This document shows positions 12,799 through 27,663 of a stretch of 33,392 nucleotides of DNA, piece by piece. The DNA comes from an uncultured bacterium (GTDB lineage Bacteria > Margulisbacteria > Marinamargulisbacteria > GCA-2716485 > GCA-002719695), in assembly GCA_963979105.1 (NCBI GenBank), contig CAXBWG010000001.1:1-33392 (forward strand). Direction: 5' to 3'. The notes under the pieces were generated by a model. It saw only the letters and a program-made list of their open reading frames with translations, did no database searches and was not told the DNA's origin. How positions within the stretch are numbered: position 1 is the stretch's first letter; each line of letters begins with the position of its first letter. The position numbers were made by a program, and so were the translations under genes.

Positions 12799-14091
12799 AT
12801 GACTAATACATTAATATTTTTATCCTTTATTTTGTTATCTTCTTTTTTTTCTGGAGCAGAAACAGCATTCACTGCAATAAATAGAATAAAACTAAGATCT
12901 ATAATTGAAAAAAAAGAAAAAAAGACAACCTATTTAGAATTTCTGTTAAGATCTCCAAAAAAATTACTTACATGTATTTTAATTGGAAATAATCTTGCAA
13001 ACATAGCCGCAACTACGTTTGCAACAGCATTTTTCATAAACATATTTAAATCTGTAGGAATTCATAGCATTGCAACATCATTAACACTAATCACAATTAT
13101 AGTTACCTTTATTTTGTTAATTTTTGGAGAGATATCCCCAAAAACATTTGCAATGAAAAACCCAACAAAATGGGCTTTGCGAATTTCTCCAATAATTTAT
13201 TACATCTATATTGGATTATACCCTTTAGTATTACTATTTTATTCATTTTCAAAAATTATAAGCAAAATTTTAGGCATTAAATCAACTTCAAACTCACATT
13301 TAACAGAAGAGGAAATTAAACTGTTAATCCAACTTGGACAAGAAGATGGAATCTTAGAAAAAGAAGAACAAAAAATGCTACATGGCGTAATAAATGTTTT
13401 TGATAAAGTTGTAAGAGAAATTATGACACCAAGAACAGATATGATATGTATTGAAATAACAGATAATGTTTCAAATGTAATTAACATAATAACCACAAAA
13501 GGTCATTCAAGAATCCCAATATATGAAGACAAAATAGACAATATAATAGGGTTTATTTACGCAAAAGACTTATTAAATATAAACCCTTCAATTAAAACAC
13601 ATAATCTAAGAAGTTTTATGAGAGAAGCTATATTTATTCCAGAAACGAAATCAATAGAATCATTATTACAACAAATGAGAAAATCAAAATTTCATTTAGC
13701 TGTGGTAGTAGACGAACACGGAGGTGTATCCGGACTTGTAACAATGGAAGATATTATTGAGGAAATAGTAGGAGAAATACATGATGAATACGACAAAGAC
13801 AATGTATATATTAAACAAATTAATACCAATCATCTTATTATAAATGCCAAAACAAATTTAGATGAACTATCAAGTTATTTAAACTTTACATTCCCTAAAA
13901 AAGACGATTATGACACAGTTGCTGGCTTTATTTTATATGAATTAGGATCCTTTCCTAAAAAAAATCAAGTAATCAAATATGAACATTTTGAATTCATTAT
14001 AAAAGATATTCGGAATCGACGAATAATTGCATTTGATGTTAAAATCAATAAATCAACTGAAGAAGTCGATAATGCAAATGAAAATAAATAA
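12799..14091 (+). CDS. DUF21/CBS-pair/CorC_HlyC membrane protein (hemolysin-like TlyC/CorC family)
   Basis: N-terminal DUF21 TM region (FFSGAETAFTA), a CBS pair (REIMTPRTDM..., HLAVVVDEHGGVSGLVTMEDIIEEIVGEI) and a C-terminal transporter-associated domain. Start taken at ATG 12799; the TTG at 12763 lies inside dgkA. Confidence 0.85.
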   Translation: MTNTLIFLSFILLSSFFSGAETAFTAINRIKLRSIIEKKEKKTTYLEFLLRSPKKLLTCILIGNNLANIAATTFATAFFINIFKSVGIHSIATSLTLITIIVTFILLIFGEISPKTFAMKNPTKWALRISPIIYYIYIGLYPLVLLFYSFSKIISKILGIKSTSNSHLTEEEIKLLIQLGQEDGILEKEEQKMLHGVINVFDKVVREIMTPRTDMICIEITDNVSNVINIITTKGHSRIPIYEDKIDNIIGFIYAKDLLNINPSIKTHNLRSFMREAIFIPETKSIESLLQQMRKSKFHLAVVVDEHGGVSGLVTMEDIIEEIVGEIHDEYDKDNVYIKQINTNHLIINAKTNLDELSSYLNFTFPKKDDYDTVAGFILYELGSFPKKNQVIKYEHFEFIIKDIRNRRIIAFDVKINKSTEEVDNANENK

Positions 14092-16387
14092 ATTAAACAC
14101 CAAATTTTTAACAAAACTAAAATTAAATAAAAGTCCTCTAAACTATTTTAAATCTATACTAGTTAACCGTGGATTTGATAATTTTGTAATACTTTCAGAC
14201 TACGCCAATAGACTCTGGCCACACTGGATTCACAAGTATCTAGATCCCAATCAAAAAAACATGTCTTATGAAAATACAATATTAACAATAATTAATAACA
14301 AATTTAGAAACTGGACCTATTTAAAAGAAAAAAACACTAAGACAACAATAACTGTTGATCCTCATGGATTAATATTTATAGAAAACTCACCATATTCGAT
14401 TGATTTTTGGATAGCTGAAGAAGATAATTTTTATTTTTATGCAAAAAGTAAAAATGTAAAACAAAAATATCACCCGCAACATAACACTATAGAAACTAGT
14501 CACAGCTTTAATCAACTAAACATAGTAAGCTCTACATTTTTTAGATCATTACCTCAAAAACACAATATTTTATTTTGCGATAACAAAATCACAAACACCT
14601 CAAATACAAAAAAATCATTATCTTTTTTCATTTCAATCCGCCCCTATGACCTCGAAGGAGTAACCTCCTTAAAAAAAATTCAATATGTCCAATCTAATGC
14701 ATTTTTAATTAACTCTAAACTGAGCATATGCCTTGATAATAAACCCGATAATATTCTATGCCTCCCATTTTCACATGGGGATGTATCTCAGTTTCACAAC
14801 AAACTAGAGATGATTTTCCAGGCAACATGTAACCACAAAAAAGCATCAGGAGTAGCGCAATTCAATCTCAATCTAGACCCTGGGGAATCTAAAATAATTT
14901 CCTTTAAATCACCATTTACAAAAAACAAAATATCTAAATATTTATTTTCCAAAAAATATAAAATAGAAAATTTAAAATTAAAAATAAATAATTTAAAAAA
15001 GCTATCTTCATCTCAATCAATTATTGATTCTAGCGTATCAAAAACTGAAACTCAAATTAAAACACCAGACAAAAAGATTAACACCTTTTTAAAATCAATC
15101 TATGCACAACTATCTAGCTCATATAATTATACAGATATAAACACGGGTATATACTTTAATTATTTATATAATTCATCAGATTTCTTAAACTATATTATAT
15201 TGCTACATAAATTTGGGTATTCAAACAATGATTTAAACATAACATTAAATAATCTATATTTTAAAAAAGTATTAAAAGAATTAAAAAGTCAAAAATTCGC
15301 CTACGAAAAATTAGGTCAATGGTTTGATCAAGTATACTACCTATATAACTCAAAAATATTAACATTAACAAAAGAAAAACTTTTAATAATAAAAGACATA
15401 CTAAGTTACTGTATTGGAAACCTAGAAAATTTTAACACTATTAATACAAAAATTTTAAACAAAAGAAATTGCGAAAGAAAAAATAAAAAAAGAAATTATT
15501 TAATAGACAATTTATCTGTATTGCAAAGTATAAAAACATATAAAGAACTATTAAACCATTCATCTATTTTTTCAACAAAAAAGTTAAACAAAGAATTTGA
15601 GAAAACAAATCATGCAGAAATTGTTTTAACAAATGGAATTCAAGAATTTATTAAAACTACTACTAAAAAAACTCTCATAAAAGACCTAATTTCACCAAAC
15701 TTATCCCAAACAGTAACGCTAAACTCCATTGAATGCACACAGTATTTTACTAAACTATTTCCAACAAAAACAACATTAATTCAAAAAACTATAGAGGAAA
15801 TTAAAACTCAATATTTTCATAACGGTATAGTTTATTCAGGAATAAACCCCTCAGGATATCCATTACATAGTAATTTATCTTATGCAGATATACTGTATAA
15901 TTTAAATGATACCGAGTATTTTAATTTCTTAAATTCGTTGCTAAATCTTACAACAGATACATATACACTACCTAATGTAATTCATTTAACAACCAAATGT
16001 GGAAGCGAGGGAGACGGGCATAATATTTTAATTACAACATTACTGGCACTAAAGCTTATAAAATGTTTTATAGAAGAGAATCCAGCTAGCTTAGAACTAT
16101 TTAAACACACACCAAAAGAGTGGTTAGTGAATGAAAAATTATATATAACAAATATAAACACATCATTTGGCGAATTCTCATTCCAATTAACCCCGAAAGA
16201 AAAGACAGTAGAATTGAATTTTAATCTTTCAGAAACATCTCCCTGCGCATTTATTATTATTCATGTCCCAAATGAATTCAAAAAATTCTCAATTTCAGAA
16301 AATATTTTTGAAATTTCAAAACCCGATATAAAAATACCAATAAACTCAAAAAAGGTTATATTTCATAAATCAAATGAAAATAAATGA
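14072..16387 (+). CDS. large hypothetical protein (about 770 aa), no recognisable family
   Basis: A long uninterrupted ORF in an AT-rich genome, translationally linked to both neighbours. It overlaps the corC-like stop and the downstream methyltransferase start. Candidate starts are ATG 14072 and 14078. There is no signal peptide, no TM helix and no motif I can name. Confidence 0.6.
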   Translation: MQMKINKLNTKFLTKLKLNKSPLNYFKSILVNRGFDNFVILSDYANRLWPHWIHKYLDPNQKNMSYENTILTIINNKFRNWTYLKEKNTKTTITVDPHGLIFIENSPYSIDFWIAEEDNFYFYAKSKNVKQKYHPQHNTIETSHSFNQLNIVSSTFFRSLPQKHNILFCDNKITNTSNTKKSLSFFISIRPYDLEGVTSLKKIQYVQSNAFLINSKLSICLDNKPDNILCLPFSHGDVSQFHNKLEMIFQATCNHKKASGVAQFNLNLDPGESKIISFKSPFTKNKISKYLFSKKYKIENLKLKINNLKKLSSSQSIIDSSVSKTETQIKTPDKKINTFLKSIYAQLSSSYNYTDINTGIYFNYLYNSSDFLNYIILLHKFGYSNNDLNITLNNLYFKKVLKELKSQKFAYEKLGQWFDQVYYLYNSKILTLTKEKLLIIKDILSYCIGNLENFNTINTKILNKRNCERKNKKRNYLIDNLSVLQSIKTYKELLNHSSIFSTKKLNKEFEKTNHAEIVLTNGIQEFIKTTTKKTLIKDLISPNLSQTVTLNSIECTQYFTKLFPTKTTLIQKTIEEIKTQYFHNGIVYSGINPSGYPLHSNLSYADILYNLNDTEYFNFLNSLLNLTTDTYTLPNVIHLTTKCGSEGDGHNILITTLLALKLIKCFIEENPASLELFKHTPKEWLVNEKLYITNINTSFGEFSFQLTPKEKTVELNFNLSETSPCAFIIIHVPNEFKKFSISENIFEISKPDIKIPINSKKVIFHKSNENK

Positions 16388-17726: not shown

Positions 17727-18098
17727 ATGAACCAAAATTATTCAACAGGACATCATCATATAGATGAACATCACGAACATCTTTTAGAACTAATTACTCA
17801 ACTTGATAGCGTAATCCAAACAAATAGAAGAAAAAACATAGAACCACTAATAGTTTTTCTAGAAGATTATTCTGAAGATCACTTTAAAGAAGAAGAAGAT
17901 ATCATGAAACAAACGAATTATATTGGATACTCTCTTCATAAAGCGGAACATCAAAAATTTAAACATTTAATAAAAGATCTAAGAAATTTATACGAAAAAG
18001 ATAAGCCAACAGCTCATTTGGTATTTTTTATAAGAAAAATTATTGATCAATTAGTCACACATATTAAAACCATAGATGTATCTATAAAAGATTTATAA
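17727..18098 (+). CDS. bacteriohemerythrin (HHE cation-binding domain)
   Basis: Hemerythrin ligand pattern: HIDEHHEHLL, HFKEEEDIM...YSLHKAEHQKF, LVTHIKTID; 123 aa. Confidence 0.85.
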   Translation: MNQNYSTGHHHIDEHHEHLLELITQLDSVIQTNRRKNIEPLIVFLEDYSEDHFKEEEDIMKQTNYIGYSLHKAEHQKFKHLIKDLRNLYEKDKPTAHLVFFIRKIIDQLVTHIKTIDVSIKDL

Positions 18099-18109
18099 AG
18101 GAGGGTTAA

Positions 18110-18553
18110 ATGCAATCAAATCCACACACAATTTTCGAAGACTATCTAAAAAGCACAGAAGGTAGATACACAAAAACAAAACGACTTATTACAAATGAAA
18201 TTTTTTGTTTAAACGATCATTTTGAAATAGAAAATTTTATAGACCATTTAAGAGTAAAAACAAAACTTATATCCAGAGCAACCGTATACAGAACAGTAAA
18301 ACAATTACTAGAAGCACAACTCCTTCAAAAAATATCAACAAAAGATGGTAAAGTATTTTATGAACAATCATTACCTCAAAAAGAACATGCACATATAATT
18401 TGTAATAATTGTGGAAAAATTATTGAAATGCACGAATCTAAATTACATAAAATTATAGAAGACTATTGCAAAAAAATTAAATTTTCTATCGACTATCAAT
18501 CGATTCATATATATGGTGAGTGCACTGACAAAAAAAAATGTAAAAAAGCATAA
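18110..18553 (+). CDS. fur: Fur-family metalloregulator (Fur/PerR/Zur type not resolvable)
   Basis: Winged-helix segment ISRATVYRTVKQLLEAQLL, metal ligands EHAHIICNNCGKII (HxH, CxxC) and a C-terminal GECTDKKKC. A strong SD, AAGGAGGG, sits 5 nt upstream of the ATG. Confidence 0.85.
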   Translation: MQSNPHTIFEDYLKSTEGRYTKTKRLITNEIFCLNDHFEIENFIDHLRVKTKLISRATVYRTVKQLLEAQLLQKISTKDGKVFYEQSLPQKEHAHIICNNCGKIIEMHESKLHKIIEDYCKKIKFSIDYQSIHIYGECTDKKKCKKA

Positions 18554-18590: not shown

Positions 18591-18824
18591 ATGATAAATA
18601 TATTTATAGGATCATTCATTATTTGCTCGGTATGCTTTATTTTTATTGGTGTAGGAGTTTTATTTTTAGGGAAAACAGCTAAGCATGAAGCTTGTGGACG
18701 AGTACCAGATCTTGAAGATCAAAATGAATGTGCATCACAAAAAGCAGGTTTGTGTCCATTTGAAGATAAAACCGGCGCTTTAAAAATACAAAGAAAAACA
18801 AGACTTACCTATCCTAAGATTTAA
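18591..18824 (+). CDS. nqrM: small Cys-containing single-TM protein, NqrM-like (DUF539) Nqr maturation factor candidate
   Basis: 77 aa with one N-terminal TM helix, followed by a basic stretch and spaced cysteines (ACGR...NECASQ...GLCPFED). Size, topology and proximity to nqr-apbE resemble NqrM. The identification rests on pattern only. Confidence 0.5.
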   Translation: MINIFIGSFIICSVCFIFIGVGVLFLGKTAKHEACGRVPDLEDQNECASQKAGLCPFEDKTGALKIQRKTRLTYPKI

Positions 18825-20632
18825 AAAAAATAATTAAAAGTTTTAAACACAATAATAGAAGAGATATATGCAAATACGGTATAAAATACAAACTGTATAC
18901 TTGCAAAAGCTATACTATTTGTCTCTTTTTTAGAAATTGCTAAAGTAGACATACATTGCAATGCAATCATAAAAAACACAATAAGACTAACAATTGAAGG
19001 CAACTCAAACAATAATTTATTTGAACCATCAAAAGTGGCAAAACTTAAGGTTTCTAACAAATTAGATGAAGTAGCAGAAATACTAAAAATAACAACTAAC
19101 GTAGATACAAACACCTCTCTAGCCGCAAAAGATAACAAAATTGCAACACCCACTCGCCAGTCTAGGCCCATTGGCAAAAAAACAGGTTCAATAAATTTTC
19201 CTATCATAATAATAAAGGAATTTTCTGGAGATGGAAAAAAGGATATTATCCATAATATAATAGATAAAATAAATATAATTGGTCCTGCATTAAAAATAAA
19301 TGAAAAGGTTTGCCTAGTCATTGAATACCAAATATTTAATAAATTTGGATATCTCCACTCAGGAAGCTCTAAATTAAATTTTTTATTTGTTTTACCTGGA
19401 ATAAACCGCCCTACTATAATAGCAACAAAGGCGCTAAGAATTAAACTTATAAGATAAATTAAGGTTAAAGCTAAAGCACTTTTAAAAGCGCTATTAGGAA
19501 ATAACAACGTAAGTAATAAACCATAAACAGGAAGTCTAGCTGAGCATTGCATTAATGGAATAATGAAACAGCAAATTAGTTTAATTTTTTCTTGTTGAAT
19601 ATTTCGTGTCGATAGCATAGCCGGTATTGCGCACGCAAAACCAGACAATAAAGGAACAAAACAACGACCATTTAAACCAATAAAGGATAAAGGTCTATCA
19701 ATGATTATCGCACCTCTAGCTAAATATCCAGAAGATTCCATCAATCCAATCCCAAAAAACAAAAATGCAATTTGAGGAACAAAAATCACAACAGATCCAA
19801 TAGCGTTTATGAGTCCATCCGAAACAAACTTAGCCAAAATAGTGTTAGAGAATATATAAGGAACCGAATTATTAAGCTGTGTAAAAAGAAAGTCAATTAA
19901 ATTAGTAAACGGAGCAGCTAAAGAAAATATACTATAAAAAAATAAAAGCATTATCAGAATAAAAAAAAAGGGCCCCAGATATGGGTTTAAAAACACATTA
20001 TCTAAATCAAAGCGATTATCATCTACACTGGTATATGAAATCTCATTCAAAATAACTTCAATTCTGGAATAATAAGATTTAAAAGAGTCCGTAATATTGG
20101 AATTTAATTGATACTCTGTAAACGAATAATCTTGAAAAAAATGATGAATGTTTTCAAAAGTAGAGTTTGACGAATCTAATTTAAAAACAGGTACATTTAA
20201 CTGTGATTTTAATTTCTCAAAATTAAATTTAACCTTACTTTTATTTGATTTTGAAAACATAGTCAACATAACAACAACAGGAAATCCTTTATCTATTAAC
20301 TGAAGAGTAGTTAAAAGATGCCTACTTGGTTGGTTAACATCCACAAACGAAATAACGAGATTAGGATTTTTAGATGACTGCCCGACTAATGAATTTAAAT
20401 TCTCCAAAGTTTTAACTGAAATTTTTTCATCATCTGATTTTGGTTTTAAAGAATACAAACCAGGGGTATCTAAAAATATTAAATTTTCATTAAAAATCGA
20501 TTTTGCAATACATATTTCAACCGTAGATCCGGGATAATTAACTACTTTAGATTTCTTACCTGTAATTTGATTAAAAAATGTTGTTTTTCCAGAATTAGGA
20601 GGCCCAACCAACGCAATATAGTTTATAGACAT
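18821..20632 (-). CDS. feoB: ferrous iron transporter FeoB
   Basis: N-terminal G-domain (ALVGPPNSGKTTFFN, DTPGLYS) followed by a polytopic membrane domain with gate-like motifs; sits directly after feoA. Confidence 0.9.
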   Translation of the reverse strand: MSINYIALVGPPNSGKTTFFNQITGKKSKVVNYPGSTVEICIAKSIFNENLIFLDTPGLYSLKPKSDDEKISVKTLENLNSLVGQSSKNPNLVISFVDVNQPSRHLLTTLQLIDKGFPVVVMLTMFSKSNKSKVKFNFEKLKSQLNVPVFKLDSSNSTFENIHHFFQDYSFTEYQLNSNITDSFKSYYSRIEVILNEISYTSVDDNRFDLDNVFLNPYLGPFFFILIMLLFFYSIFSLAAPFTNLIDFLFTQLNNSVPYIFSNTILAKFVSDGLINAIGSVVIFVPQIAFLFFGIGLMESSGYLARGAIIIDRPLSFIGLNGRCFVPLLSGFACAIPAMLSTRNIQQEKIKLICCFIIPLMQCSARLPVYGLLLTLLFPNSAFKSALALTLIYLISLILSAFVAIIVGRFIPGKTNKKFNLELPEWRYPNLLNIWYSMTRQTFSFIFNAGPIIFILSIILWIISFFPSPENSFIIMIGKFIEPVFLPMGLDWRVGVAILLSFAAREVFVSTLVVIFSISATSSNLLETLSFATFDGSNKLLFELPSIVSLIVFFMIALQCMSTLAISKKETNSIAFASIQFVFYTVFAYISSIIVFKTFNYFF

Positions 20633-20641
20633 AAAAATAAA

Positions 20642-20860
20642 CTATACAACTAATATCTGTTCTGCTTCAAATTTCCTAATAGCAACTCTTGCTCCCCTCA
20701 GCATAACAGTGATAGGTCCTGAAAAAATTGATTCTGAAATTATTGTAGCTTTAGTCCCGGGAACAAATCCTAAAATTTCTAATTCTTCTTCGTGTTCTTT
20801 ATTTACTAAAGATTCAATTGTAATTGTTTTCTTTTTTTTAACTTCACTTAATTTATACAT
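20642..20860 (-). CDS. feoA: FeoA (SH3-like ferrous iron transport accessory protein)
   Basis: 72 aa with LEILGFVPGTKATIIS...GPITVMLRGARVAIRKFEAEQI, typical of the FeoA fold; 9 nt upstream of feoB. Confidence 0.8.
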   Translation of the reverse strand: MYKLSEVKKKKTITIESLVNKEHEEELEILGFVPGTKATIISESIFSGPITVMLRGARVAIRKFEAEQILVV

Positions 20861-20879
20861 TTTAATTCCCTAAATAAGA

Positions 20880-21569
20880 CTAAGTCTCATTATCTTTAAA
20901 TAGTTTATTTTTGTCAATCATAAAACGATATTTTTTAAAAAAAATAACAATTCCAGTCAAAATAATTACCAATAAAAAAACACTTACAATAGTATTAATT
21001 TTTTTAAAAAATACATGTGGTAAATATCCAGTATGTAATGACCGAATAAATTCCCAAAAATCCCAAGGGGACCTATTAATAAAATGCTGAAACCAAGCAT
21101 TATCTTTATATTCATACCCCCCCTGATTGGTAGTAATAAATAACTGATTCTGATTTGAGCTAACAGAATATAATTCATATGAATCAGGGATAAGTATTCT
21201 TTCAAAAGAATAGGTATTAGGATCCATTTTAAACAACAATCCATTTGATAACCCAATCCAATATGCCTGTTTAAAAAACACAATATCTATAATATATTTA
21301 GAAGAAAATGGAATAGAAATCTCTTTAAAACGTTTTAAATCAGAAGATAAAAACAAAGAAAAACGAGTAACTATAAAATAATTATCTTGAAAAACAAATG
21401 TCATTTTCGGATATTGTTGGTAAGGATCATCAATTATTTCATTTGATTTAAAATTATCTGGGTTATTTAAAATAATTCCAGTTAAAACCAAAGATAAAAT
21501 AAAAATAGCTGATATCACTCCAAGCCAAGAATGAATTAACGTAAAATATTTAGTCTTAATAAAACGCAT
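20880..21569 (-). CDS. PepSY_TM-like two-TM membrane protein with a periplasmic loop (VciB/FoxB-like candidate ferric reductase component)
   Basis: TM1 carries LIHSWLGVISAIFILSLVLTGIIL (His13, codon 21531-21533). The pre-TM2 segment carries FIRSLHTGYLPH (His179, codon 21033-21035) followed by TIVSVFLLVIILTGIVIFF. These H-x-W-x-G and L-H-x-G signatures are those of PepSY-associated TM helices. Confidence 0.6.
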   Translation of the reverse strand: MRFIKTKYFTLIHSWLGVISAIFILSLVLTGIILNNPDNFKSNEIIDDPYQQYPKMTFVFQDNYFIVTRFSLFLSSDLKRFKEISIPFSSKYIIDIVFFKQAYWIGLSNGLLFKMDPNTYSFERILIPDSYELYSVSSNQNQLFITTNQGGYEYKDNAWFQHFINRSPWDFWEFIRSLHTGYLPHVFFKKINTIVSVFLLVIILTGIVIFFKKYRFMIDKNKLFKDNET

Positions 21570-21578
21570 TTTACACCT

Positions 21579-22127
21579 TTATATTAAATATCCAATAATA
21601 ACTAACGCACGTTTAACCCCACTTGCAATAGACCATGTTGAAATTGTAGCCCCAGAAATACCCATAATATCTTTATCTACAACTAATCCATCAGATTTTG
21701 TTTTATTAATAAACTGTTTTAAAAATCGTTTTTTTCGTATTTCACTGCCGATTTTTTCTCGATAAACCATCACAACAACTTGTTTTACTTTTAAATCTGA
21801 AGTAATCCCCGTCATAAAAGTAATAGGCTTATACTTACCTTTTTCATCCAACACTAAACAATACCCAATTAAATTGTCTTTTGTACTGACTTTATAAAAA
21901 ACCAATTTAGAATTAGTAATAAAAAAACCAAGCTTTTTTTCGATTTCTTGTTTAGTTTTAGCATCTAAAGTAATTTCCTTTTTTAAAAAAGAATCAGTAT
22001 TAGGAAAAATTTTATGTATAGCCTCATTTGCACTATAATAGACTTTACTATAATAAATACCTTCGTCACTATAACTCTGTTGAGATAAGAGAAACAAAAA
22101 AATAATTACTAAAAACCGAATCCTCAT
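21579..22127 (-). CDS. secreted FMN_bind-domain protein with an ApbE flavinylation motif
   Basis: Sec signal MRIRFLVIIFLFLLSQQSYS. The C-terminal DKDIMGISGATISTWSI matches the D-x-x-SGAT flavinylation site also seen in NqrC (VDGISGATITS) in this window. The S-G-A-T codons were verified at 21645-21656. Confidence 0.75.
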   Translation of the reverse strand: MRIRFLVIIFLFLLSQQSYSDEGIYYSKVYYSANEAIHKIFPNTDSFLKKEITLDAKTKQEIEKKLGFFITNSKLVFYKVSTKDNLIGYCLVLDEKGKYKPITFMTGITSDLKVKQVVVMVYREKIGSEIRKKRFLKQFINKTKSDGLVVDKDIMGISGATISTWSIASGVKRALVIIGYLI

Positions 22128-22132
22128 TAAAA

Positions 22133-23335
22133 TTAAAACCCAACGGCTACAGAAGAAATAAATTGTGTTTTATAACCTGTTTCTGAAACTTGGCGATAAT
22201 CATCTTGAGAAATTTCAAATTTATAAACAACAGATTCGGTAGGTCTGAAATTAAAGCCTAAAGTATATCGAACTGTAGTATTATTTAATACAGTATCTGT
22301 GTTCACATATCCTAATCTAGAAAATAAAGTTATAACAGGTTTAGATAGCGAAGGCAGTTTTTTTCGTAAATACCCCTGTAGTACATGAGATCTAAACTCT
22401 AAGTAGCCACCTTCCATTTGAGCAGGAATGGAACTATATCCATCATTATCAATAAAAGCTTTAGCAAATTCTAATAGTGTTTCATATCTACCATTTTTAT
22501 AAAATAGATCTATACCTGTTAAAAGTAAATTATTCTTACCAGCATCATCATAATTACCAGAATATAAACTCATACCCAAATTAAGACCTAAACTTGGAGA
22601 AACCTCTACTCTAGCAGCTATTGCTTTTGATCCATTATTATCTTGTTTATAATTAGGACGAGATTTTCTAATTCCTTCTGATAGTGATATGTCATCAGCC
22701 GTAGATCCAGAAGTATCGGCTAACCCATTAAATACATATAGCTCATAACCCAACTCTAAATCTTGTATATCTTTCTGACCATAAAACCCAACTCCCGTGT
22801 CCATCCATGTTGAAGGTACAATATATGAAGAATAAATGGGCCGCTGAGTAGCCTCTCTTACATCGGAATCATGTAACACATTTACTCGTCCAAAGGGAAC
22901 TAAAATTATGCCAACTCGATTTACAAATAACTCAGATACACGATAATCTAACCAAGCTTGCTCAATTTTAATTTCGCCTTTTTGAACACCACTTGCAGAA
23001 TTTGTAACATAACCTCCATATTCAAACTCAATTTCAGAGTTAATTAAAATATCTTCATGCACCTGCGAAGACACCTCAAGAATAAATCGATGGGCTTTAA
23101 AAGTCGAACTTGAATCTGACTTAGACGAAGTATAATCAGAATCTAAAACATTAACATATTCAGTATCAAAATAACCCCCAATAGATCTTTGCCCAATCCT
23201 ATCAAATGCAGTTATAGAACGCCCTCCAGGCCCATTTCTATCTAAAATAGGATTAGAAAAAATATAAGAATTAACAGTAGTTAACATAAGAATAATACCC
23301 ACTAATAATAACTTTTTAAAAACAACATTACACAT
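22133..23335 (-). CDS. outer-membrane beta-barrel porin-like protein
   Basis: N-terminal signal peptide, Gly/Tyr/Asp-rich alternating beta-strand pattern, and a C-terminal ...SSVAVGF ending in Phe (the classical OMP terminus). GAGGT RBS at 23341-23345. Confidence 0.6.
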   Translation of the reverse strand: MCNVVFKKLLLVGIILMLTTVNSYIFSNPILDRNGPGGRSITAFDRIGQRSIGGYFDTEYVNVLDSDYTSSKSDSSSTFKAHRFILEVSSQVHEDILINSEIEFEYGGYVTNSASGVQKGEIKIEQAWLDYRVSELFVNRVGIILVPFGRVNVLHDSDVREATQRPIYSSYIVPSTWMDTGVGFYGQKDIQDLELGYELYVFNGLADTSGSTADDISLSEGIRKSRPNYKQDNNGSKAIAARVEVSPSLGLNLGMSLYSGNYDDAGKNNLLLTGIDLFYKNGRYETLLEFAKAFIDNDGYSSIPAQMEGGYLEFRSHVLQGYLRKKLPSLSKPVITLFSRLGYVNTDTVLNNTTVRYTLGFNFRPTESVVYKFEISQDDYRQVSETGYKTQFISSVAVGF

Positions 23336-23350
23336 AACATACCTCTATTT

Positions 23351-23369
23351 GATATTGAGTCTCAATATT
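23351..23369. promoter_or_regulatory. Fur-box-like operator (perfect 8-1-8 palindrome ATATTGAG-T-CTCAATAT at 23352-23368)
   Basis: Counted by hand, GATATTGAGTCTCAATATT matches the 19-bp Fur consensus GATAATGATAATCATTATC at 13 of 19 positions. It overlaps the predicted -10 and start site of the porin operon. A Fur-family gene is in the window. Confidence 0.45.
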
Positions 23370-23393
23370 AATATGGAACATCGTAACAATCAA
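23365..23393 (-). promoter_or_regulatory. candidate sigma70-type promoter of the porin/FMN_bind/PepSY_TM/feoAB operon
   Basis: The minus strand reads TTGATT (23388-23393), a 17-nt spacer, then TAATAT (23365-23370). The predicted 5' UTR is about 20 nt and contains GAGGT. Confidence 0.4.
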
Positions 23394-23448: not shown

Positions 23449-24489
23449 TTAAAATTCAATTTGTGAAGACGAAACATATTTTGAAAATCCAGAGGAGCTA
23501 AACAATTTTAGGCTCGCATCTTTTTGTCGTACAACAAACAAACATTCAACATCTTTATAAGATTCAACAATACTTAACCCTCTATTTAACCCTATTACAA
23601 AAAGTGAAGTAGCAAGCGCATCTGAAAGCATGCAGTTAGGTGCAATTACAGTAACAGACGCAATATTATTTGATATCGGCTTACCAATTCGCGGATCAAA
23701 TAAATGAGAATAAATAACATTATCCTTTTCAAAATAGTTCTTGTAATCTCCACTTGTTGCAATAGAGTTGTTTTTTAAATTCAACGTTAACAACAATTCA
23801 TTATCAGATTTAAAGTATTGGGGATTAAGTACTCCTATATTCCAACCAGAATCTTTTTTGGAAGAACCAACACGAACCTCACCACCTATTTCTACCATGT
23901 ATCTATCTACACCAATTTCAGTAAGAATCTCAACAATTTGATCAACCCCATACCCTTTTACAATAGATGACAAATTCAAACTAAACTTAGAATGATTCTT
24001 TTTTAATTTAGTATCTTTAATAACTAATTTGTTAAAGCCTACATAATCAAATACTTCTTTAACTTGATCATCAGTTGGAATTTCATAATATATTGTATTA
24101 TTACCAAATCCCCATAAATCAAATAATGGTTTCATTGATGGATCATAAGCACCTTTACTTAATTCATATATATCATTAGCCGTTTTCAAAACACCAACCA
24201 ATTCAGGAGACACATCAACAAAATCAGTACTTTTAAGGGTATTAAATTTACTTAATTCCGAATGATCATTCCATGTAGAAAATGTCATATTAATACTATG
24301 AAGCTTTTGTGTAATTTGTTTTTCTAAAGATTTTTTAGATCTCCATGAATCAACATACACTTTAATCGTATAAGTTGTTCCCATAGTCTCACCACGAAAC
24401 ACTAAAAACTTATCTTGAAAAACCCAAATAACAAATACTGGAATAAAAAAAAGAAACAAAAATAAAAATAACCGCTGTTTTAGAGTCAT
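23449..24489 (-). CDS. apbE: FAD:protein FMN transferase (flavin transferase ApbE)
   Basis: N-terminal membrane anchor or signal, plus motifs YDPSMKPL, KGYGVDQ, EIGGEV, ATSGDYKNYF, SDALATSLF. It immediately follows nqrF, as in canonical nqr loci. Confidence 0.9.
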   Translation of the reverse strand: MTLKQRLFLFLFLFFIPVFVIWVFQDKFLVFRGETMGTTYTIKVYVDSWRSKKSLEKQITQKLHSINMTFSTWNDHSELSKFNTLKSTDFVDVSPELVGVLKTANDIYELSKGAYDPSMKPLFDLWGFGNNTIYYEIPTDDQVKEVFDYVGFNKLVIKDTKLKKNHSKFSLNLSSIVKGYGVDQIVEILTEIGVDRYMVEIGGEVRVGSSKKDSGWNIGVLNPQYFKSDNELLLTLNLKNNSIATSGDYKNYFEKDNVIYSHLFDPRIGKPISNNIASVTVIAPNCMLSDALATSLFVIGLNRGLSIVESYKDVECLFVVRQKDASLKLFSSSGFSKYVSSSQIEF

Positions 24490-26359: not shown

Positions 26360-26980
26360 TTAAGCCTTACTTGTAACCAAATTTTGAATCCAAACTAATA
26401 CCCCTATTAAAATAAACGCACCTGGTGCTAACAACATTAACCCCATGTCAACATAGCCTAAATCATACACAAATTGCGGAATAACTTTTACGCCAAATAA
26501 AGCACCTGAGCCTAACAGCTCTCTAAAAAACCCAACTAAAACTAAAATATAGCCATAACCTAATCCATTACCAATACCATCCCACATAGACAACCAAGGT
26601 CCATTTGCTAATGCAAAGGCTTCTGCACGTCCCATAATAATACAATTCGTAATAATCAACCCAACAAAAACACTAAGTTGTTTACTCACATCAAACATAA
26701 ATGCTTTTAAAAATTGATCTGCTAAAATAACCAACGTAGAAATAACAACTAATTCTACAATAATTCGAATATTTTTTGGAATTGCATTTCTAAGAATAGA
26801 AATCGTAATATTAGAAAAAGTTAATACAAACGTCATTGCAAGAACCATAACTATAGACGGTATAATTTGAGTTGTAACAGCCAAAGATGAACAAATTCCT
26901 AAAATAGCTACAGAAATTGGATTTGCCTCTATAATTGGTTTTTTAAACGTTTTAAATGCATCTGTGTTAAATATATTCAT
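26360..26980 (-). CDS. nqrD: Na+-NQR subunit D
   Basis: NqrD/RnfE family, 206 aa, with conserved cysteines in ILGICSSLAV and ITNCIIMGRAEAF. Confidence 0.9.
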   Translation of the reverse strand: MNIFNTDAFKTFKKPIIEANPISVAILGICSSLAVTTQIIPSIVMVLAMTFVLTFSNITISILRNAIPKNIRIIVELVVISTLVILADQFLKAFMFDVSKQLSVFVGLIITNCIIMGRAEAFALANGPWLSMWDGIGNGLGYGYILVLVGFFRELLGSGALFGVKVIPQFVYDLGYVDMGLMLLAPGAFILIGVLVWIQNLVTSKA

Positions 26981-27663
26981 GAACGTCTCCTTAAATGCTT
27001 TGAAAATAACTCATAAGAATTAAGATCTTGCTTTAAATACTTTTCAACACCTTTACTAGTTATTGTAGCCCCACTAATTCCATCTACAAAATTACTATAC
27101 CGATCCTTAGAAATAGTTGAATCCTTAAGTTTCCCCTTGACTACACTAATAGAAACAAAGGCTCCTGACATATCTGTGATTTTTTTTCCTATAAATTGCT
27201 TTTGAAACCAGTCTTTTTCTACTTCGGCACCTAAGCCGGGTGTTTCTTTATGATCGTAAACCGTTAATCCAACTACAGTTTCACCATCGCCTTTAATAGC
27301 AATATAGCCATAAACCCAACTCCATAAACCATAAGCTTTAAATGGAACAACATACATATCTATTGAACGTTTACTACCAACTACAAAAACTGGTAATTTT
27401 GTAACCTCATCAGTTAACCTTCCTGAATCGGAAATATAAAATTCTTTAACATTAGTTAAATATAAGTCTTCAATTTCATTTACAGTATATTTTTTAGTTG
27501 AAACAAGCAAACTTAATGATTTTAAAATATTTTTTTGGCGATCAACCAACATATTTTTCTCTTGTTTTGATTTTAAACCAACCGCAGTTGCAGTAAGTGC
27601 TATACTACAAAACAAGCACATTAATAAAGCAAATAAAAATGTTTTTTGTGTATCAGATAACAT
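26977..27663 (-). CDS. nqrC: Na+-NQR subunit C
   Basis: Single N-terminal TM and an FMN_bind domain with flavinylation site VDGISGATITSKG (S-G-A-T codons at 27064-27075). Confidence 0.9.
   Translation of the reverse strand: MLSDTQKTFLFALLMCLFCSIALTATAVGLKSKQEKNMLVDRQKNILKSLSLLVSTKKYTVNEIEDLYLTNVKEFYISDSGRLTDEVTKLPVFVVGSKRSIDMYVVPFKAYGLWSWVYGYIAIKGDGETVVGLTVYDHKETPGLGAEVEKDWFQKQFIGKKITDMSGAFVSISVVKGKLKDSTISKDRYSNFVDGISGATITSKGVEKYLKQDLNSYELFSKHLRRRS

What the first reader, a model, noticed from the sequence alone, without database searches (positions are those of the whole stretch)
18821..23393. Candidate flavin-dependent ferric-reduction and ferrous-import module: porin, flavinylatable FMN_bind protein, PepSY_TM-like protein, FeoA and FeoB in one operon beside nqr-apbE
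Seen directly in the sequence:
- Five same-strand genes are separated by 5, 9, 19 and 9 nt.
- A 113-nt spacer upstream carries a -35/-10 pair and a Fur-box-like palindrome.
- The products are an OMP ending in Phe, a signal-peptide protein with an SGAT flavinylation motif, a 2-TM protein with His in each PepSY_TM-type helix signature, and FeoA and FeoB.

Established knowledge:
- ApbE attaches FMN to Thr in SGAT motifs of extracytoplasmic FMN_bind domains, as in NqrC, RnfG and Listeria PplA.
- PepSY_TM proteins such as Pseudomonas FoxB are membrane ferric-siderophore reductases.
- As far as I recall, Vibrio VciB (2 TM helices, essential histidines) reduces Fe(III) to feed Feo.

Inference:
- The porin admits Fe(III) or a chelate.
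- The membrane protein and the flavinylated periplasmic protein pass electrons to it.
- FeoAB imports the resulting Fe(II).
- The adjacent ApbE would serve both Nqr and this module.

Computational surveys have noted FMN_bind/PepSY-like pairings. I know of no characterised Feo system with a dedicated flavoprotein subunit and porin in the same operon.
Basis: partly seen in the sequence, partly recalled or inferred. Interest (0 to 1): 0.78.

Follow-up and report, generated by a model that had tools for sequence, protein, structure and literature searches.

The report
Flavoprotein iron-reduction module beside Feo
Five adjacent genes look like a complete route for iron: in through an outer-membrane pore, reduced in the periplasm by a flavin-carrying protein fed by a small haem-type membrane protein, then imported by FeoAB. 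The same gene partnership recurs in unrelated bacteria, but none of the chemistry has been tested.

Summary
Five minus-strand genes (porin, FMN_bind, PepSY_TM, feoA, feoB; gaps of 5/9/19/9 nt) follow nqrA-F and apbE. SGAT/Thr161, the C-terminal Phe and the 17-nt palindrome are all present.

- The five-gene order recurs in five close relatives and in a Pseudomonadales MAG.
- The same parts occur in other orders in an Elusimicrobia MAG, a Krumholzibacteriia MAG and an unnamed metagenome contig.

New findings:
1. feoAB has its own conserved promoter and Fur-box-like operator, so there are two co-regulated units rather than strictly one operon.
2. The PepSY_TM protein is a half-size form: 2 TM helices, one invariant His per membrane face, and a three-blade BNR half-propeller. 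It probably works as a dimer.
3. The deepest conserved core is porin plus FMN_bind, found in 74 of 76 informative loci across many phyla. Most of these carry a different small HxH membrane protein and no feo.
4. PepSY_TM–ApbE and FMN_bind–ApbE fusions tie the module to flavinylation.

Flavinylated PepSY-like iron reductases (Méheust 2021) and Fur-controlled Porin_O_P-like porins beside feoAB (Rodionov 2004) had already been predicted. I rate this a new variant of a known kind. It is biochemically untested.

The parts
23350..23393 (-). Upstream control region P1. Weak -35 TTGATT (23393..23388), 17-nt spacer, -10 TAATAT (23370..23365). Fur-box-like operator TGAGACTCAATATCA (23364..23350) sits inside the perfect palindrome at 23368..23352. 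RBS AGAGG at 23346..23342.
   Evidence: The block ATTGA[GT]ACTNNNTATC is conserved upstream of the porin gene in L001, L003, L005 and L008. A perfect palindrome TGATACTTAGTATCA sits there in L091.
22133..23335 (-). Outer-membrane beta-barrel protein, 400 aa. It is a distant Porin_O_P (OprO/OprP) relative with a signal peptide and a C-terminal Phe.
   Evidence: Pfam PF07396, 1.2e-7. A profile of 15 homologues hits OprO 4rjx at E=5e-4. Invariant residues are H82, R83, E101, E103, E105, E125, H155, R165, R226, R340 and K372. It lies immediately upstream of the FMN_bind gene in 74 of 76 informative loci.
21579..22127 (-). Secreted FMN_bind (RnfG/NqrC-like) protein, 182 aa. It carries the flavinylation motif SGAT at 158-161, so the candidate FMN-Thr is 161.
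   Evidence: Pfam PF04205. Motif position. G159, A160 and T161 are invariant in 13 homologues down to 26% identity. Nearest solved relative is RnfG 7zc6_G at 7e-14, aligned through the flavinylated Thr.
20880..21569 (-). Half-size PepSY_TM membrane protein, 229 aa. Layout: TM1 (invariant H13 near the cytoplasmic face), a periplasmic three-blade BNR/Asp-box half-propeller (about 47-171), invariant H179 in LHTGY at the periplasmic face, then TM2.
   Evidence: Pfam PF03929, 4e-10. Invariant residues. BNR propeller hits at 1e-11 to 1e-7, and FoxB TM1 at E=0.0028. AF2 monomer pLDDT 83 with 12 strands. Foldseek gives propeller fragments, with Pizza3 at TMt 0.69. The tandem model behaves as one ring. 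ApbE fusions are P0110 and P0124. Charge distribution fits N-in/C-in topology.
20875..20917 (-). Internal control region P2 for feoAB. -35 TTGACA (20917..20912), 17-nt spacer, -10 GATAAT (20894..20889), then operator-like TGAGACTTAGTCTTA (20889..20875). It overlaps the last codons of the PepSY_TM gene.
   Evidence: Best sigma-70-like site in the region, 11 of 12 positions. Operator match, sequence. TTGACAA and AATGA.ACT.AGT.T are invariant upstream of feoA in the window, L001, L005, L007 and L008; also present in L091.
20642..20860 (-). FeoA, 72 aa.
   Evidence: Pfam PF04023, 6e-14.
18821..20632 (-). FeoB, 603 aa: ferrous iron transporter with an N-terminal GTPase domain and a Gate/FeoB_C membrane domain.
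   Evidence: Pfam hits. TIGR00437 scores 380.5 bits, above its 315.65 cut-off.
23449..24489 (-). ApbE, the FAD:protein FMN transferase, last gene of the nqrABCDEF-apbE block. It is the candidate enzyme for flavinylating Thr161.
   Evidence: Pfam PF02424, 1.7e-83. The same position is seen in L001, L005, L008 and L091. In L007 it is separated from the module by four genes.
18110..18553 (+). Fur-family regulator, 147 aa, convergent with feoB. It is the candidate binder of operators P1 and P2. A hemerythrin gene (17727-18098) precedes it.
   Evidence: Pfam PF01475, 7e-23; NCBIfam cannot separate Fur from PerR. It is co-conserved beside feoB in L001, L005, L007, L008 and L091. In Elusimicrobia locus L090, fur lies directly upstream of the module, and similar palindromes precede both fur and the module.

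Best explanation
This is most likely a reductive iron-uptake module controlled by a Fur-family regulator. It is built from two tandem, co-regulated transcription units: porin-FMN_bind-PepSY_TM and feoAB.

Proposed mechanism, with each step marked:
1. Shown by sequence only. The 229-aa PepSY_TM protein spans the inner membrane twice, N-in and C-in. It has one invariant His near each membrane face.
2. Inferred. Two copies pair to form a four-helix bundle with two bis-His b-haems, as the single-chain 4-TM FoxB does. Their three-blade loops close into a six-blade periplasmic propeller. This carries electrons from an unknown cytoplasmic or quinol donor to the periplasmic face.
3. Inferred, well supported. 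ApbE attaches FMN to Thr161 of the secreted RnfG-like protein. That protein takes the electrons.
4. Inferred. The reduced flavin reduces Fe(III) species that entered through the dedicated Porin_O_P-like channel. Alternatively, it keeps incoming iron ferrous.
5. Family assignment shown, coupling inferred. FeoAB imports the Fe(II).
6. Inferred from conserved operators. The neighbouring Fur-family protein represses both units when iron is replete.
For: Anatomy: gene layout, domains and motifs are confirmed.

Synteny within the lineage: the full five-gene order plus Fur recurs in L001, L005/L006, L007, L008 and L091. FMN_bind identity in L001, L005, L007 and L008 is 44-64%.

Recurrence outside the lineage:
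- Pseudomonadales MAG L068 has the same order.
- L089 has ferritin-ferritin-feoA-feoB-porin-FMN_bind-PepSY_TM-apbE.
- Elusimicrobia L090 has fur-70aa-porin-FMN_bind-PepSY_TM-apbE-feoB-(DtxR_C/FeoA).
- Krumholzibacteriia L027 has feoA-feoB-porin-FMN_bind-(PepSY_TM-ApbE fusion).
- Different gene orders argue for selection on the linkage, not inherited synteny.
- feoB lies within 6 kb in 6 of 80 species-level loci. Binomial p is about 3e-6 against an assumed 0.5% background.

Flavinylation:
- GAT is invariant, and the RnfG alignment runs through the modified Thr.
- Fusions exist between FMN_bind and ApbE (L012, L013) and between PepSY_TM and ApbE (P0110, P0124).

Haem conduit:
- The protein passes the PF03929 threshold.
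- H13 and H179 are invariant down to 19% identity.
- FoxB has two b-haems, each held by conserved His at the two bilayer edges. Its 4-TM bundle is built as two TM-domain-TM halves (bioRxiv 10.1101/2021.01.28.428567; PMC13038864).
- In the tandem AF2 model both beta halves have pLDDT of about 90.
- The Foldseek TM-score to a whole propeller (virginiamycin B lyase) rises from 0.34-0.35 to 0.58.

Regulation:
- The operator is conserved at P1 and P2 and resembles a Fur box.
- Similar palindromes precede fur itself and the module in L090.

Prior prediction and established chemistry:
- Flavinylated PepSY-like clusters were proposed as assimilatory iron reductases (PMC8238504).
- Reduced flavins reduce Fe(III) chelates readily. 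This is from my own knowledge of flavin-dependent ferric reductases.
Against: - There are no experimental data for any member.
- The TM helices of the tandem model have low confidence (pLDDT 50-68). I could not measure His-His distances, and haem binding is untested.
- The electron donor is unknown.
- In the wider porin-FMN_bind family most loci have no feoAB. They sit instead beside MntP, an ArsP_1/HMA permease, TonB-dependent receptors or DHOR. The core module may therefore not be iron-specific.
- PepSY_TM relatives can serve copper rather than iron (CrpH, PMC13038864).
- The porin's invariant alternating Glu residues could mean that Fe2+ or Mn2+ enters already reduced. That would make an Fe(III) reductase less obviously necessary.
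- L003/L009 carries the triad with its operator but no feoAB nearby.
- The Fur-family protein cannot be told from PerR by NCBIfam scores.
Confidence: 0.6

Rival explanations
1. The porin-FMN_bind-(His membrane protein) triad is a general extracytoplasmic redox or metal-handling module. Possible substrates are Mn(III/IV), Cu(II), another metal, or a non-metal periplasmic oxidant. Feo is only one of several interchangeable neighbours. Under this reading the window's module need not reduce Fe(III) for Feo.
For: - The porin plus FMN_bind pair occurs in 74 of 76 informative loci, but feoB is near only 6 of 80.
- Other neighbours are MntP (10 loci), ArsP_1/HMA permease (14), DHOR (7) and TonB-dependent receptors (7).
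- The usual third gene is an unrelated 4-TM HxH protein, not PepSY_TM.
- A PepSY_TM subfamily supports copper enzymes.
- A glutathione peroxidase gene follows feoB in L033.
Against: - Modules that carry the half-propeller PepSY_TM are linked to feoAB in about 10 of 14 untruncated loci. These span several lineages and gene orders.
- The same operator precedes both the triad and feoA.
- Ferritins and Fur sit beside the module in L089 and L090.
- The other recurrent neighbours are still metal-homeostasis genes.
Confidence: 0.2
2. The module protects or conditions ferrous iron rather than producing it. The cation-type porin admits Fe2+, and the flavoprotein/PepSY_TM pair keeps periplasmic iron reduced, or scavenges oxidants, under micro-oxic conditions before Feo takes it up.
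For: - The porin has invariant alternating E101/E103/E105, plus E125 and two His, rather than an obvious OprP-type basic ladder.
- Rodionov et al. proposed Fe2+ transport for Fur-regulated PF07396-like porins.
- A hemerythrin, a possible O2/iron sensor, is co-conserved with the Fur-family gene.
Against: - This reading differs from the main explanation only in where the iron is oxidised.
- No selectivity data exist.
- The inward orientation of the conserved Glu residues is inferred from alternation only. No reliable porin model could be made.
Confidence: 0.1
3. The porin and the flavoprotein form a trans-outer-membrane electron conduit, a flavin analogue of MtrAB-type porin-cytochrome complexes. 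It would reduce extracellular insoluble Fe(III) or Mn(IV).
For: - There is a near-obligate porin-FMN_bind pairing and a three-tier (inner membrane, periplasm, outer membrane) gene set.
- The module is present in Labilibaculum manganireducens (L070).
Against: - The barrel protein is only about 375 mature residues and is related to OprO/OprP diffusion porins. From my own knowledge this is much smaller than the roughly 26-strand MtrB sheath.
- No CxxCH motif occurs in any module protein.
- No docking evidence was obtainable.
Confidence: 0.05
4. Chance adjacency: an unrelated triad happens to lie between nqr-apbE and feoAB.
For: - feoAB has its own promoter-like site.
- The L003 genome keeps the triad elsewhere, without feoAB.
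Against: - The linkage recurs in different orders and phyla.
- The two units share an operator.
- Enrichment p is about 3e-6.
Confidence: 0.03

Closest known systems
Flavinylation-associated PepSY-like systems (bioinformatic class of Méheust et al. 2021, eLife; PMC8238504)
   Same: - A PF03929/PF16357 membrane protein is clustered with an ApbE substrate and ApbE.
- The proposed role is extracytosolic iron reduction for assimilation, with Fur control noted in some species.
- The window meets their operational definition.
   Different: - Their typical partners are DUF2271, DUF4198, VIT1, TonB-type receptors or a fused NAD-binding domain. Feo and porins are not mentioned (0 occurrences).
- Here the substrate is an RnfG-like FMN_bind protein and the transporter is FeoAB.
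- A Porin_O_P-like OMP is an integral part.
- The PepSY_TM protein is a 2-TM half with a BNR half-propeller.
FoxB-type PepSY_TM ferrisiderophore reductases (FoxB, PDB 7ABW; also FpvG, FhuB/FsrB, HiuB) and the copper-linked CrpH
   Same: - Same Pfam family, with a profile hit to FoxB TM1.
- Conserved His residues lie at both membrane faces, which in FoxB ligate two b-haems.
- The periplasmic domain is flanked by TM helices.
   Different: - Known members have at least four TM helices and alpha/beta PepSY domains forming a siderophore cavity.
- They partner with TonB-dependent receptors.
- This protein has 2 TM helices, one His per face, a three-blade Asp-box half-propeller and a flavoprotein partner.
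- Haem binding would require a homodimer.
Vibrio cholerae VciB (Peng & Payne 2017), which supports Feo-dependent iron uptake
   Same: It is an inner-membrane PepSY-like protein reported to have extracytosolic iron-reductase activity (as summarised in PMC8238504). It is functionally linked to ferrous uptake.
   Different: [quoted passage not shown]
- It is not in a feo operon, to my knowledge.
- Its sequence and the paper were not available here, so homology was not tested.
Fur-regulated hypothetical porins of Geobacter and Desulfuromonas: psp (PF07396-like), and the porin-feoA-feoA-feoB operon of G. sulfurreducens (Rodionov et al. 2004; PMC545781)
   Same: A predicted Fur-box-controlled outer-membrane porin, weakly Porin_O_P-like, was proposed to admit iron for FeoAB. 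In one case the porin shares an operon with feoAB.
   Different: - No flavoprotein or PepSY_TM partner is described.
- The G. sulfurreducens porin belongs to the OprB family.
- The Fur box differs (WTGAAAATNATTTTCAW).
- Orthology of psp to this porin was not tested.
RnfG / NqrC subunits of the Rnf and Nqr complexes
   Same: They share the FMN_bind fold family. The flavinylated Thr in S/TGAT aligns, and both are extracytoplasmic ApbE substrates.
   Different: - RnfG scores fall far below the NCBIfam cut-offs (35 bits against 102).
- This protein has a cleavable-looking signal peptide instead of a membrane anchor.
- It is not encoded with Rnf or Nqr membrane subunits. The true NqrC is at 26977-27663.
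Reductive iron uptake in cyanobacteria: porins admit inorganic Fe, which is reduced before FeoB import (from my own knowledge; Qiu et al. 2018 is only cited in PMC7376174)
   Same: The same logical route: outer-membrane diffusion channel, periplasmic or plasma-membrane reduction, then Feo.
   Different: The components are unrelated and genetically dispersed there. Here the route would be encoded as one compact, co-regulated locus.

Membership tests
Pfam PepSY_TM (PF03929) | Score above the Pfam gathering threshold | tested here: met
   40.4 bits against 28.8, E=4e-10. All homologues carry PF03929.
FoxB-type di-haem PepSY_TM reductases | Four-TM bundle in one chain, capped by two PepSY (PF03413-type) domains | tested here: not met
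   Two TM helices only, with a three-blade BNR/Asp-box loop. Known members have at least 4 TM helices.
FoxB-type di-haem PepSY_TM reductases | Conserved axial His ligands on both faces of the membrane | tested here: inconclusive
   H13 (cytoplasmic side of TM1) and H179 (periplasmic side of TM2) are invariant to 19% identity. There is only one His per face per chain, so a dimer is needed. The tandem model is suggestive for the propeller but has low confidence for the helices.
FoxB-type di-haem PepSY_TM reductases | Binds b-haem and reduces Fe(III) substrates | not testable with these tools
   Needs purification, UV-vis spectra and a ferrozine assay.
ApbE-flavinylated FMN_bind proteins | FMN_bind domain above threshold, with the [S/T]GA[T/S] motif | tested here: met
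   PF04205 scores 32.6 bits against 22. SGAT lies at 158-161. G, A and T are invariant in 13 homologues. The site aligns with the RnfG flavinylation site.
ApbE-flavinylated FMN_bind proteins | Extracytoplasmic location, and an ApbE encoded in the genome | tested here: met
   The N-terminal signal-peptide-like sequence was judged by inspection; no predictor was run. apbE lies 113 nt upstream of the module.
ApbE-flavinylated FMN_bind proteins | Covalent FMN on the motif Thr | not testable with these tools
   Needs fluorescence SDS-PAGE or mass spectrometry, with and without ApbE.
Flavinylated PepSY-like system (operational definition of Méheust 2021) | [quoted passage not shown] | tested here: met
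   The PepSY_TM gene is adjacent to a secreted FMN_bind gene and two genes from apbE. The definition is quoted.
Feo ferrous iron transporter | FeoA plus a FeoB with G-domain and Gate/FeoB_C membrane domain | tested here: met
   FeoA scores 52.3 bits. FeoB_N, Gate and FeoB_C are all hit. TIGR00437 scores 380.5 bits against 315.65. No FeoC was seen.
Porin_O_P (OprO/OprP) porins | Sequence membership | tested here: met
   PF07396 scores 31.8 bits against 20.9. It is hit by 13 of 15 homologues. The profile hits OprO 4rjx at E=5e-4.
Porin_O_P (OprO/OprP) porins | Phosphate/anion selectivity (basic ladder lining the pore) | tested here: inconclusive
   The invariant set includes E101, E103, E105, E125, H82 and H155, as well as R83, R165, R226, R340 and K372. 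No structure could be modelled and no alignment to the OprP ladder residues was made.
Fur regulon | Fur-box upstream, with a Fur protein that binds it iron-dependently | tested here: inconclusive
   The box matches 11 of 14 and 14 of 19 positions, with about 3% of shuffles reaching that score. It is conserved at P1 and P2 and in front of fur in L090. The regulator cannot be assigned to Fur rather than PerR. Binding is untested.
Porin-cytochrome (MtrAB-type) conduits | Multihaem c-type cytochrome (CxxCH motifs) paired with a large sheath barrel | tested here: not met
   No CxxCH in any of the six proteins. The barrel protein is 400 aa and OprO/P-like.

The most novel reading that the evidence does not exclude
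The window shows one form of a widespread, undescribed three-tier envelope redox module.
- The core is a dedicated Porin_O_P-like outer-membrane channel paired with a covalently flavinylated periplasmic RnfG-like protein.
- That core is plugged into one of two unrelated small His-bearing inner-membrane proteins.
- One option is a 2-TM half PepSY_TM. It would homodimerise into a di-haem four-helix bundle capped by a six-blade propeller assembled from two half-propellers.
- The other option is a 4-TM 'TTHxH' protein with no Pfam family.

In its PepSY_TM form the module would be the missing dedicated ferric reductase that feeds FeoAB. It would be the first Feo system with its own porin, flavoprotein and electron conduit.
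Probability: 0.35. Interest if true: 0.8.

Novelty: new variant of a known kind. Interest (0 to 1): 0.62.

Why it matters
How Feo, a ferrous-iron importer, gets substrate in oxic or micro-oxic habitats where iron is ferric is a long-standing question.

If this reading is right, the locus offers a compact genetic answer that can be tested:
- an outer-membrane channel
- a flavin-based periplasmic reductant
- a minimal haem conduit
- FeoAB, all under one Fur-type operator

It would also give three further things:
- A function for a large orphan porin/FMN_bind gene pair found in many phyla, including Marinimicrobia, Bacteroidota, Acidobacteriota, Fibrobacterota, Omnitrophota, Ignavibacteria and Elusimicrobia.
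- A natural example of a membrane protein whose periplasmic propeller is assembled from two half-propellers.
- A small (229 aa) model for PepSY_TM electron transfer.

Tried and rejected
- The search for related loci with the PepSY_TM alignment A1 failed because no stretch was conserved enough. I used the FMN_bind alignment A2 instead.
- The first word-index search with the PepSY_TM protein found only 2 proteins. The profile search found 12.
- One homologue, P0008, had no contig on record.
- The VciB paper is not held, so VciB topology and homology could not be checked.
- Searching the supplementary files of Méheust 2021 for PF07396, PF02421, PF04023, FeoB and Porin_O_P found nothing in the text held. 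A literature search for FeoB + FMN-binding + ApbE found no paper.
- Single-fragment PDB searches with TM1 and TM2 did not reach FoxB. Only the family profile did, weakly. I could not map H13 and H179 onto numbered FoxB ligands.
The accepted tandem model had homologue rows over the first copy only.
- No porin model was made.
- The sigma-70 and terminator scan is uninformative in this AT-rich DNA (35 sites against 31.5 expected). It found no intergenic terminator within the cluster; its one terminator-like hit lies inside feoB.
- Rfam found nothing in the window.
- The HxH protein that replaces PepSY_TM elsewhere has no Pfam family. hhalign shows no relation to PepSY_TM (probability 0.2).
- The conserved 77-aa Cys-rich protein has no Pfam hit even at E of 10 or less. 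I dropped the idea that it is NqrM.
- My first iterative ApbE HMM was contaminated by FMN_bind-ApbE fusion proteins. I ignored ApbE labels that coincided with short FMN_bind ORFs.
- I first judged the palindrome unlike a Fur box because I mis-registered it by hand. The computed alignment corrected this.

Full report
**1. What is in the sequence**

The window is a complete 33,392-bp metagenomic contig with about 28% G+C.

On the minus strand, nqrA-F and apbE (24489..23449) are followed by a 113-nt spacer and then five ORFs:
- a 400-aa protein (23335..22133)
- a 182-aa protein (22127..21579)
- a 229-aa protein (21569..20880)
- a 72-aa protein (20860..20642)
- a 603-aa protein (20632..18821)

The gaps between them are 5, 9, 19 and 9 nt.

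The smaller details also hold:
- The OMP ends in Phe.
- The FMN_bind protein has a signal-peptide-like N-terminus and SGAT at 158-161.
- The PepSY_TM protein has two hydrophobic spans.

A hemerythrin, a Fur-family regulator and a conserved 77-aa Cys-rich membrane protein lie convergent with feoB.

**2. Is the gene partnership real?**

*Close relatives.* Exact-protein look-ups of FMN_bind homologues gave the same layout in five related contigs: L001, L005/L006, L007, L008 and L091. That layout is nqr-apbE, porin-FMN_bind-PepSY_TM-feoA-feoB, then small protein-Fur(-hemerythrin). FMN_bind identity in L001, L005, L007 and L008 is 44-64%.
- In L007, four unrelated genes separate apbE from the porin. 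The apbE adjacency is therefore not obligatory.
- A more distant relative (L003/L009, GCA_038109055.1) has only porin-FMN_bind-PepSY_TM, away from nqr and feo.

*Species-level survey.* A scan of one genome per GTDB species with the FMN_bind alignment returned 80 loci from many phyla. I called ORFs, built in-house HMMs and clustered the neighbours.
- The porin lies immediately upstream of the FMN_bind gene in 74 of 76 loci that have room for it. This count corrects three ORF-calling artefacts. One exception, L033, carries a different OM barrel.
- PepSY_TM follows in only a minority of loci.
- In 41 loci the third gene is an unrelated 166-aa, 4-TM protein with an invariant TTHxH motif. It has no Pfam family and no detectable relation to PepSY_TM.
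- In Acidobacteriota, apbE sits between the two. In two Nitrospirota loci, FMN_bind and ApbE are fused.

*Link to feoAB.* feoAB lies within 6 kb in 6 of the 80 loci. Binomial p is about 3e-6 against an assumed 0.5% background.
- The link is concentrated in the PepSY_TM form of the module.
- A Pseudomonadales MAG (L068) has the identical five-gene order behind a TonB-dependent receptor.
- Three look-ups of PepSY_TM homologues that are 23-32% identical to the window protein all found feoB in the locus, two of them in different arrangements:
  - L089: ferritin-ferritin-feoA-feoB-porin-FMN_bind-PepSY_TM-apbE
  - L090 (Elusimicrobia): fur-70aa-porin-FMN_bind-PepSY_TM-apbE-feoB-(DtxR_C/FeoA)
  - L091: the window's own order
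- The Pfam-less 380-397-aa genes in these loci are confirmed as the same porin family, at 1e-95 to 5e-109.
- Krumholzibacteriia L027 has feoA-feoB-porin-FMN_bind-(PepSY_TM-ApbE fusion).

Recurrence in shuffled orders across phyla is the strongest evidence here that the parts work together.

**3. Regulation: two units, one operator**

It is ATATTGAGACTCAATAT at 23368..23352, a perfect 8-1-8 repeat.
- Its core TGAGACTCAATATCA matches the Fur 7-1-7 consensus at 11 of 14 positions.
- It matches the E. coli 19-mer at 14 of 19 positions, which about 3% of shuffles reach.
- More tellingly, the block is conserved in otherwise diverged spacers upstream of the porin gene in L001, L003, L005, L008 and L091.

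Promoter-like hits in this AT-rich DNA are at chance level.

A second copy of the operator was unexpected.
- In every relative it lies directly upstream of feoA. It sits behind an invariant TTGACAA and an AT-rich -10.
- In the window this is TTGACA-17-GATAAT-TGAGACTTAGTCTTA at 20917..20875. That is the best sigma-70-like site in the region.
- It overlaps the last codons of the PepSY_TM gene.

So feoAB has its own promoter. The locus is better described as two tandem units under the same operator. Read-through remains possible, because no terminator was found between them.

In Elusimicrobia L090, similar palindromes (TGAGACTGATTCTCA and TGAGATTTTGTCTCA) precede fur itself and the module. This points to the neighbouring Fur-family protein as the binder. 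NCBIfam cannot decide between Fur and PerR for it.

**4. The PepSY_TM protein is a half-size form**

*Invariant residues.* Across 12 homologues down to 19% identity, the invariant residues include H13 (HxWxG, in TM1), H179 (LHTGY, just before TM2), W159 and several Gly. H162 and H185 are not conserved. The charge distribution fits N-in/C-in topology. That places H13 near the cytoplasmic face and H179 at the periplasmic face.

*The periplasmic loop.*
- The loop (about 47-171) is homologous to BNR/Asp-box propeller blades. A family profile hits GH74 xyloglucanases, Ycf48 and sortilin at 1e-11 to 1e-5, and FoxB TM1 at 0.0028.
- Distant homologues keep clear SxDxGxTW boxes that have decayed in the window protein.
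- An AF2 model (pLDDT 83) shows 12 strands between two long helices.
- Foldseek finds only propeller fragments of about 115-135 residues. One hit is the designed three-blade 'Pizza3', at TMt 0.69.

*Comparison with FoxB.* FoxB, the solved family member, is a single chain of TM-PepSY-TM-TM-PepSY-TM. Its four helices hold two b-haems through conserved His at the two bilayer edges. All characterised relatives are reported to have at least four TM segments.

The window protein is therefore one half of that plan, with a different periplasmic domain. A homodimer would restore four helices, two His per face and six blades.

*Tandem model.* I modelled a head-to-tail tandem of the window protein. This is topologically permissible because both termini are cytoplasmic.
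- Both beta halves were confident (pLDDT about 90).
- The TM-score to a whole propeller (virginiamycin B lyase) rose from 0.34-0.35 to 0.58, with about 370 aligned columns. This is consistent with the halves being placed in one ring.
- The helices were of low confidence (pLDDT 50-68), and I could not inspect the coordinates.

The dimer is a supported inference, not a result.

*Size of the subfamily.* The exhaustive representative search shows that this short architecture is a real subfamily. About 45 of the best 150 hits are 209-257-aa proteins covering the whole profile. Two representatives, P0110 and P0124, are fused to ApbE. That fusion links this PepSY_TM form directly to flavinylation.

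**5. The flavoprotein and the porin**

*Flavoprotein.*
- Its nearest solved relatives are RnfG subunits (7zc6_G at 7e-14). The alignment runs through the flavinylated Thr.
- G159, A160 and T161 are invariant in the family.
- Its scores are far below the RnfG equivalog cut-offs. The genuine NqrC is elsewhere in the window, at 26977-27663.

*Porin.*
- It is a distant Porin_O_P member. The profile hits OprO at 5e-4, and PF07396 is hit by 13 of 15 homologues.
- It has its own signature. Invariant residues are H82, R83, E101, E103, E105, E125, H155, R165, R226, R340 and K372.
- Three alternating Glu on one predicted strand would face the same side. This hints at a cation path rather than the phosphate-type basic ladder, but I could not model the barrel.
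- No protein in the cluster has a CxxCH motif.

**6. Most likely mechanism**

I commit, at about 0.6, to a Fur-family-controlled reductive iron-uptake module.
1. A PepSY_TM homodimer passes electrons outward through two b-haems. The donor is unknown, as it is for FoxB.
2. The ApbE-flavinylated periplasmic protein accepts the electrons.
3. It reduces ferric species that came through the dedicated porin, or keeps incoming iron ferrous.
4. FeoAB imports the Fe(II).

What is shown: the parts list, the motifs, the co-occurrence and the shared operator.

What is inferred: haem binding, dimerisation, flavinylation, the direction of electron flow, the identity of the metal and what the porin admits.

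The main rival, at about 0.2, is that the porin-flavoprotein core is a general metal or redox module. Most members sit beside MntP, an ArsP_1/HMA permease, TonB-dependent receptors or DHOR rather than feo. A PepSY_TM subfamily also serves copper enzymes. Even so, the neighbours are nearly all metal-homeostasis genes, and the PepSY_TM form is preferentially tied to feoAB.

**7. Comparison with what is known, and novelty**

- Méheust et al. (2021) defined flavinylation-associated PepSY-like clusters and proposed assimilatory iron reduction. Their partners were DUF2271, DUF4198, VIT1 and TonB-type receptors. Neither that paper nor the 2024 follow-up mentions a porin, and neither discusses Feo as a partner of these systems.
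- Rodionov et al. (2004) predicted Fur-regulated PF07396-like porins (psp) and a porin-feoA-feoA-feoB operon in Geobacter, with no redox partners.
- VciB is the functional precedent for a PepSY-like reductase helping Feo, but it is not flavin-linked.

The idea is therefore not categorically new, and the window meets the operational definition of a known predicted class.

As far as my searches reach, the following are new:
- the obligate porin-FMN_bind pairing
- the half-size PepSY_TM with a half-propeller
- its ApbE fusions
- the repeated direct coupling to feoAB under a shared operator

I rate it a new variant of a known kind, with interest about 0.6. It is a well-supported and testable candidate answer to where Feo gets its Fe(II), but it remains entirely computational.

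Noticed in passing
L009-L088 (e.g. L046:7790-9462; L061:7725-9510): A Porin_O_P-like OMP gene sits immediately upstream of the orthologous FMN_bind gene in 74 of 76 informative species-level loci. The loci span many phyla, including Marinimicrobia, Bacteroidota, Acidobacteriota, Fibrobacterota, Omnitrophota, Ignavibacteria and Calditrichota. This pair, not PepSY_TM or feoAB, is the deepest conserved core. I found no description of it.
   Followed up: partly
e.g. L046:9481-9981, L033:9525-10013, L029:811-1326: In 41-48 loci the gene after FMN_bind (or after apbE) is a 4-TM protein of about 166 aa. Its only invariant residues are two His in a TTHxH motif. It has no Pfam family and no hhalign relation to PepSY_TM, and appears to be an alternative inner-membrane partner. 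In L029 and L033 it is followed directly by feoA-feoB.
   Followed up: partly
window 18591-18824 (+): A conserved 77-aa protein has one TM helix and three invariant Cys (ACG[KR]VPE...C.SQ.AGLCPFED). It is convergent with feoB and overlaps the feoB stop codon by 4 nt. It is present in all six related loci and has no Pfam hit at E of 10 or less. Its position near nqr-apbE recalled NqrM, but nothing supports that.
   Followed up: partly
window 17727-18553 (+): A hemerythrin gene directly precedes the Fur-family gene. The pair is co-conserved in L005, L007 and L008, which suggests O2 or iron sensing upstream of the regulator. NCBIfam scores do not separate Fur from PerR.
   Followed up: no
window 20880-20917 (-); L001:9190-9270: In the window and L001, the last 12 or so codons of the PepSY_TM gene (IDKNKLFKDNET) are encoded by the conserved feoA promoter and operator. 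In L005, L007 and L008 the gene stops earlier and the same DNA is intergenic. The C-terminal tail looks like read-through into a regulatory region.
   Followed up: partly
P0110, P0124, P0144 (representative library); L012:677-2230, L013:6652-8193; L027:9449-11368: Several fusion proteins turned up: half-propeller PepSY_TM fused to ApbE, and FMN_bind fused to ApbE. P0144 is a PepSY_TM with a double-length BNR loop (about six blades) in one chain.
   Followed up: partly
L041, L052, L061, L063, L065, L070, L072, L073, L081, L088 (Labilibaculum, Ancylomarina and relatives): In Bacteroidota the porin-FMN_bind pair has no third gene on the same strand. It is flanked by an ArsP_1 permease with an HMA domain, an MntP manganese exporter and a TPR sensor kinase. 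One carrier is Labilibaculum manganireducens. This hints at a manganese or other metal link for the core pair.
   Followed up: no
L016-L025, L030, L037 (Acidobacteriota, Latescibacterota and a few others): A di-haem oxidoreductase (DHOR/DUF1111, 'thiol oxidoreductase') gene is often inserted in or beside the module. The same family lies in the strongly iron-induced BT2473-2482 locus of B. thetaiotaomicron, which also contains a porin (PMC10434189).
   Followed up: no
window 14027-16387 (+): A 786-aa ORF has no Pfam domain. It is conserved in length and position (766-776 aa) next to the TrmA-like methyltransferase in L005, L007 and L008.
   Followed up: no
L007:2128-6691: In this relative, four genes are inserted between apbE and the porin: a hypothetical, an Oxidored_molyb protein, a short-chain dehydrogenase and an MFS transporter. 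The P1 operator is absent upstream of the porin, while the feoA operator is kept.
   Followed up: partly
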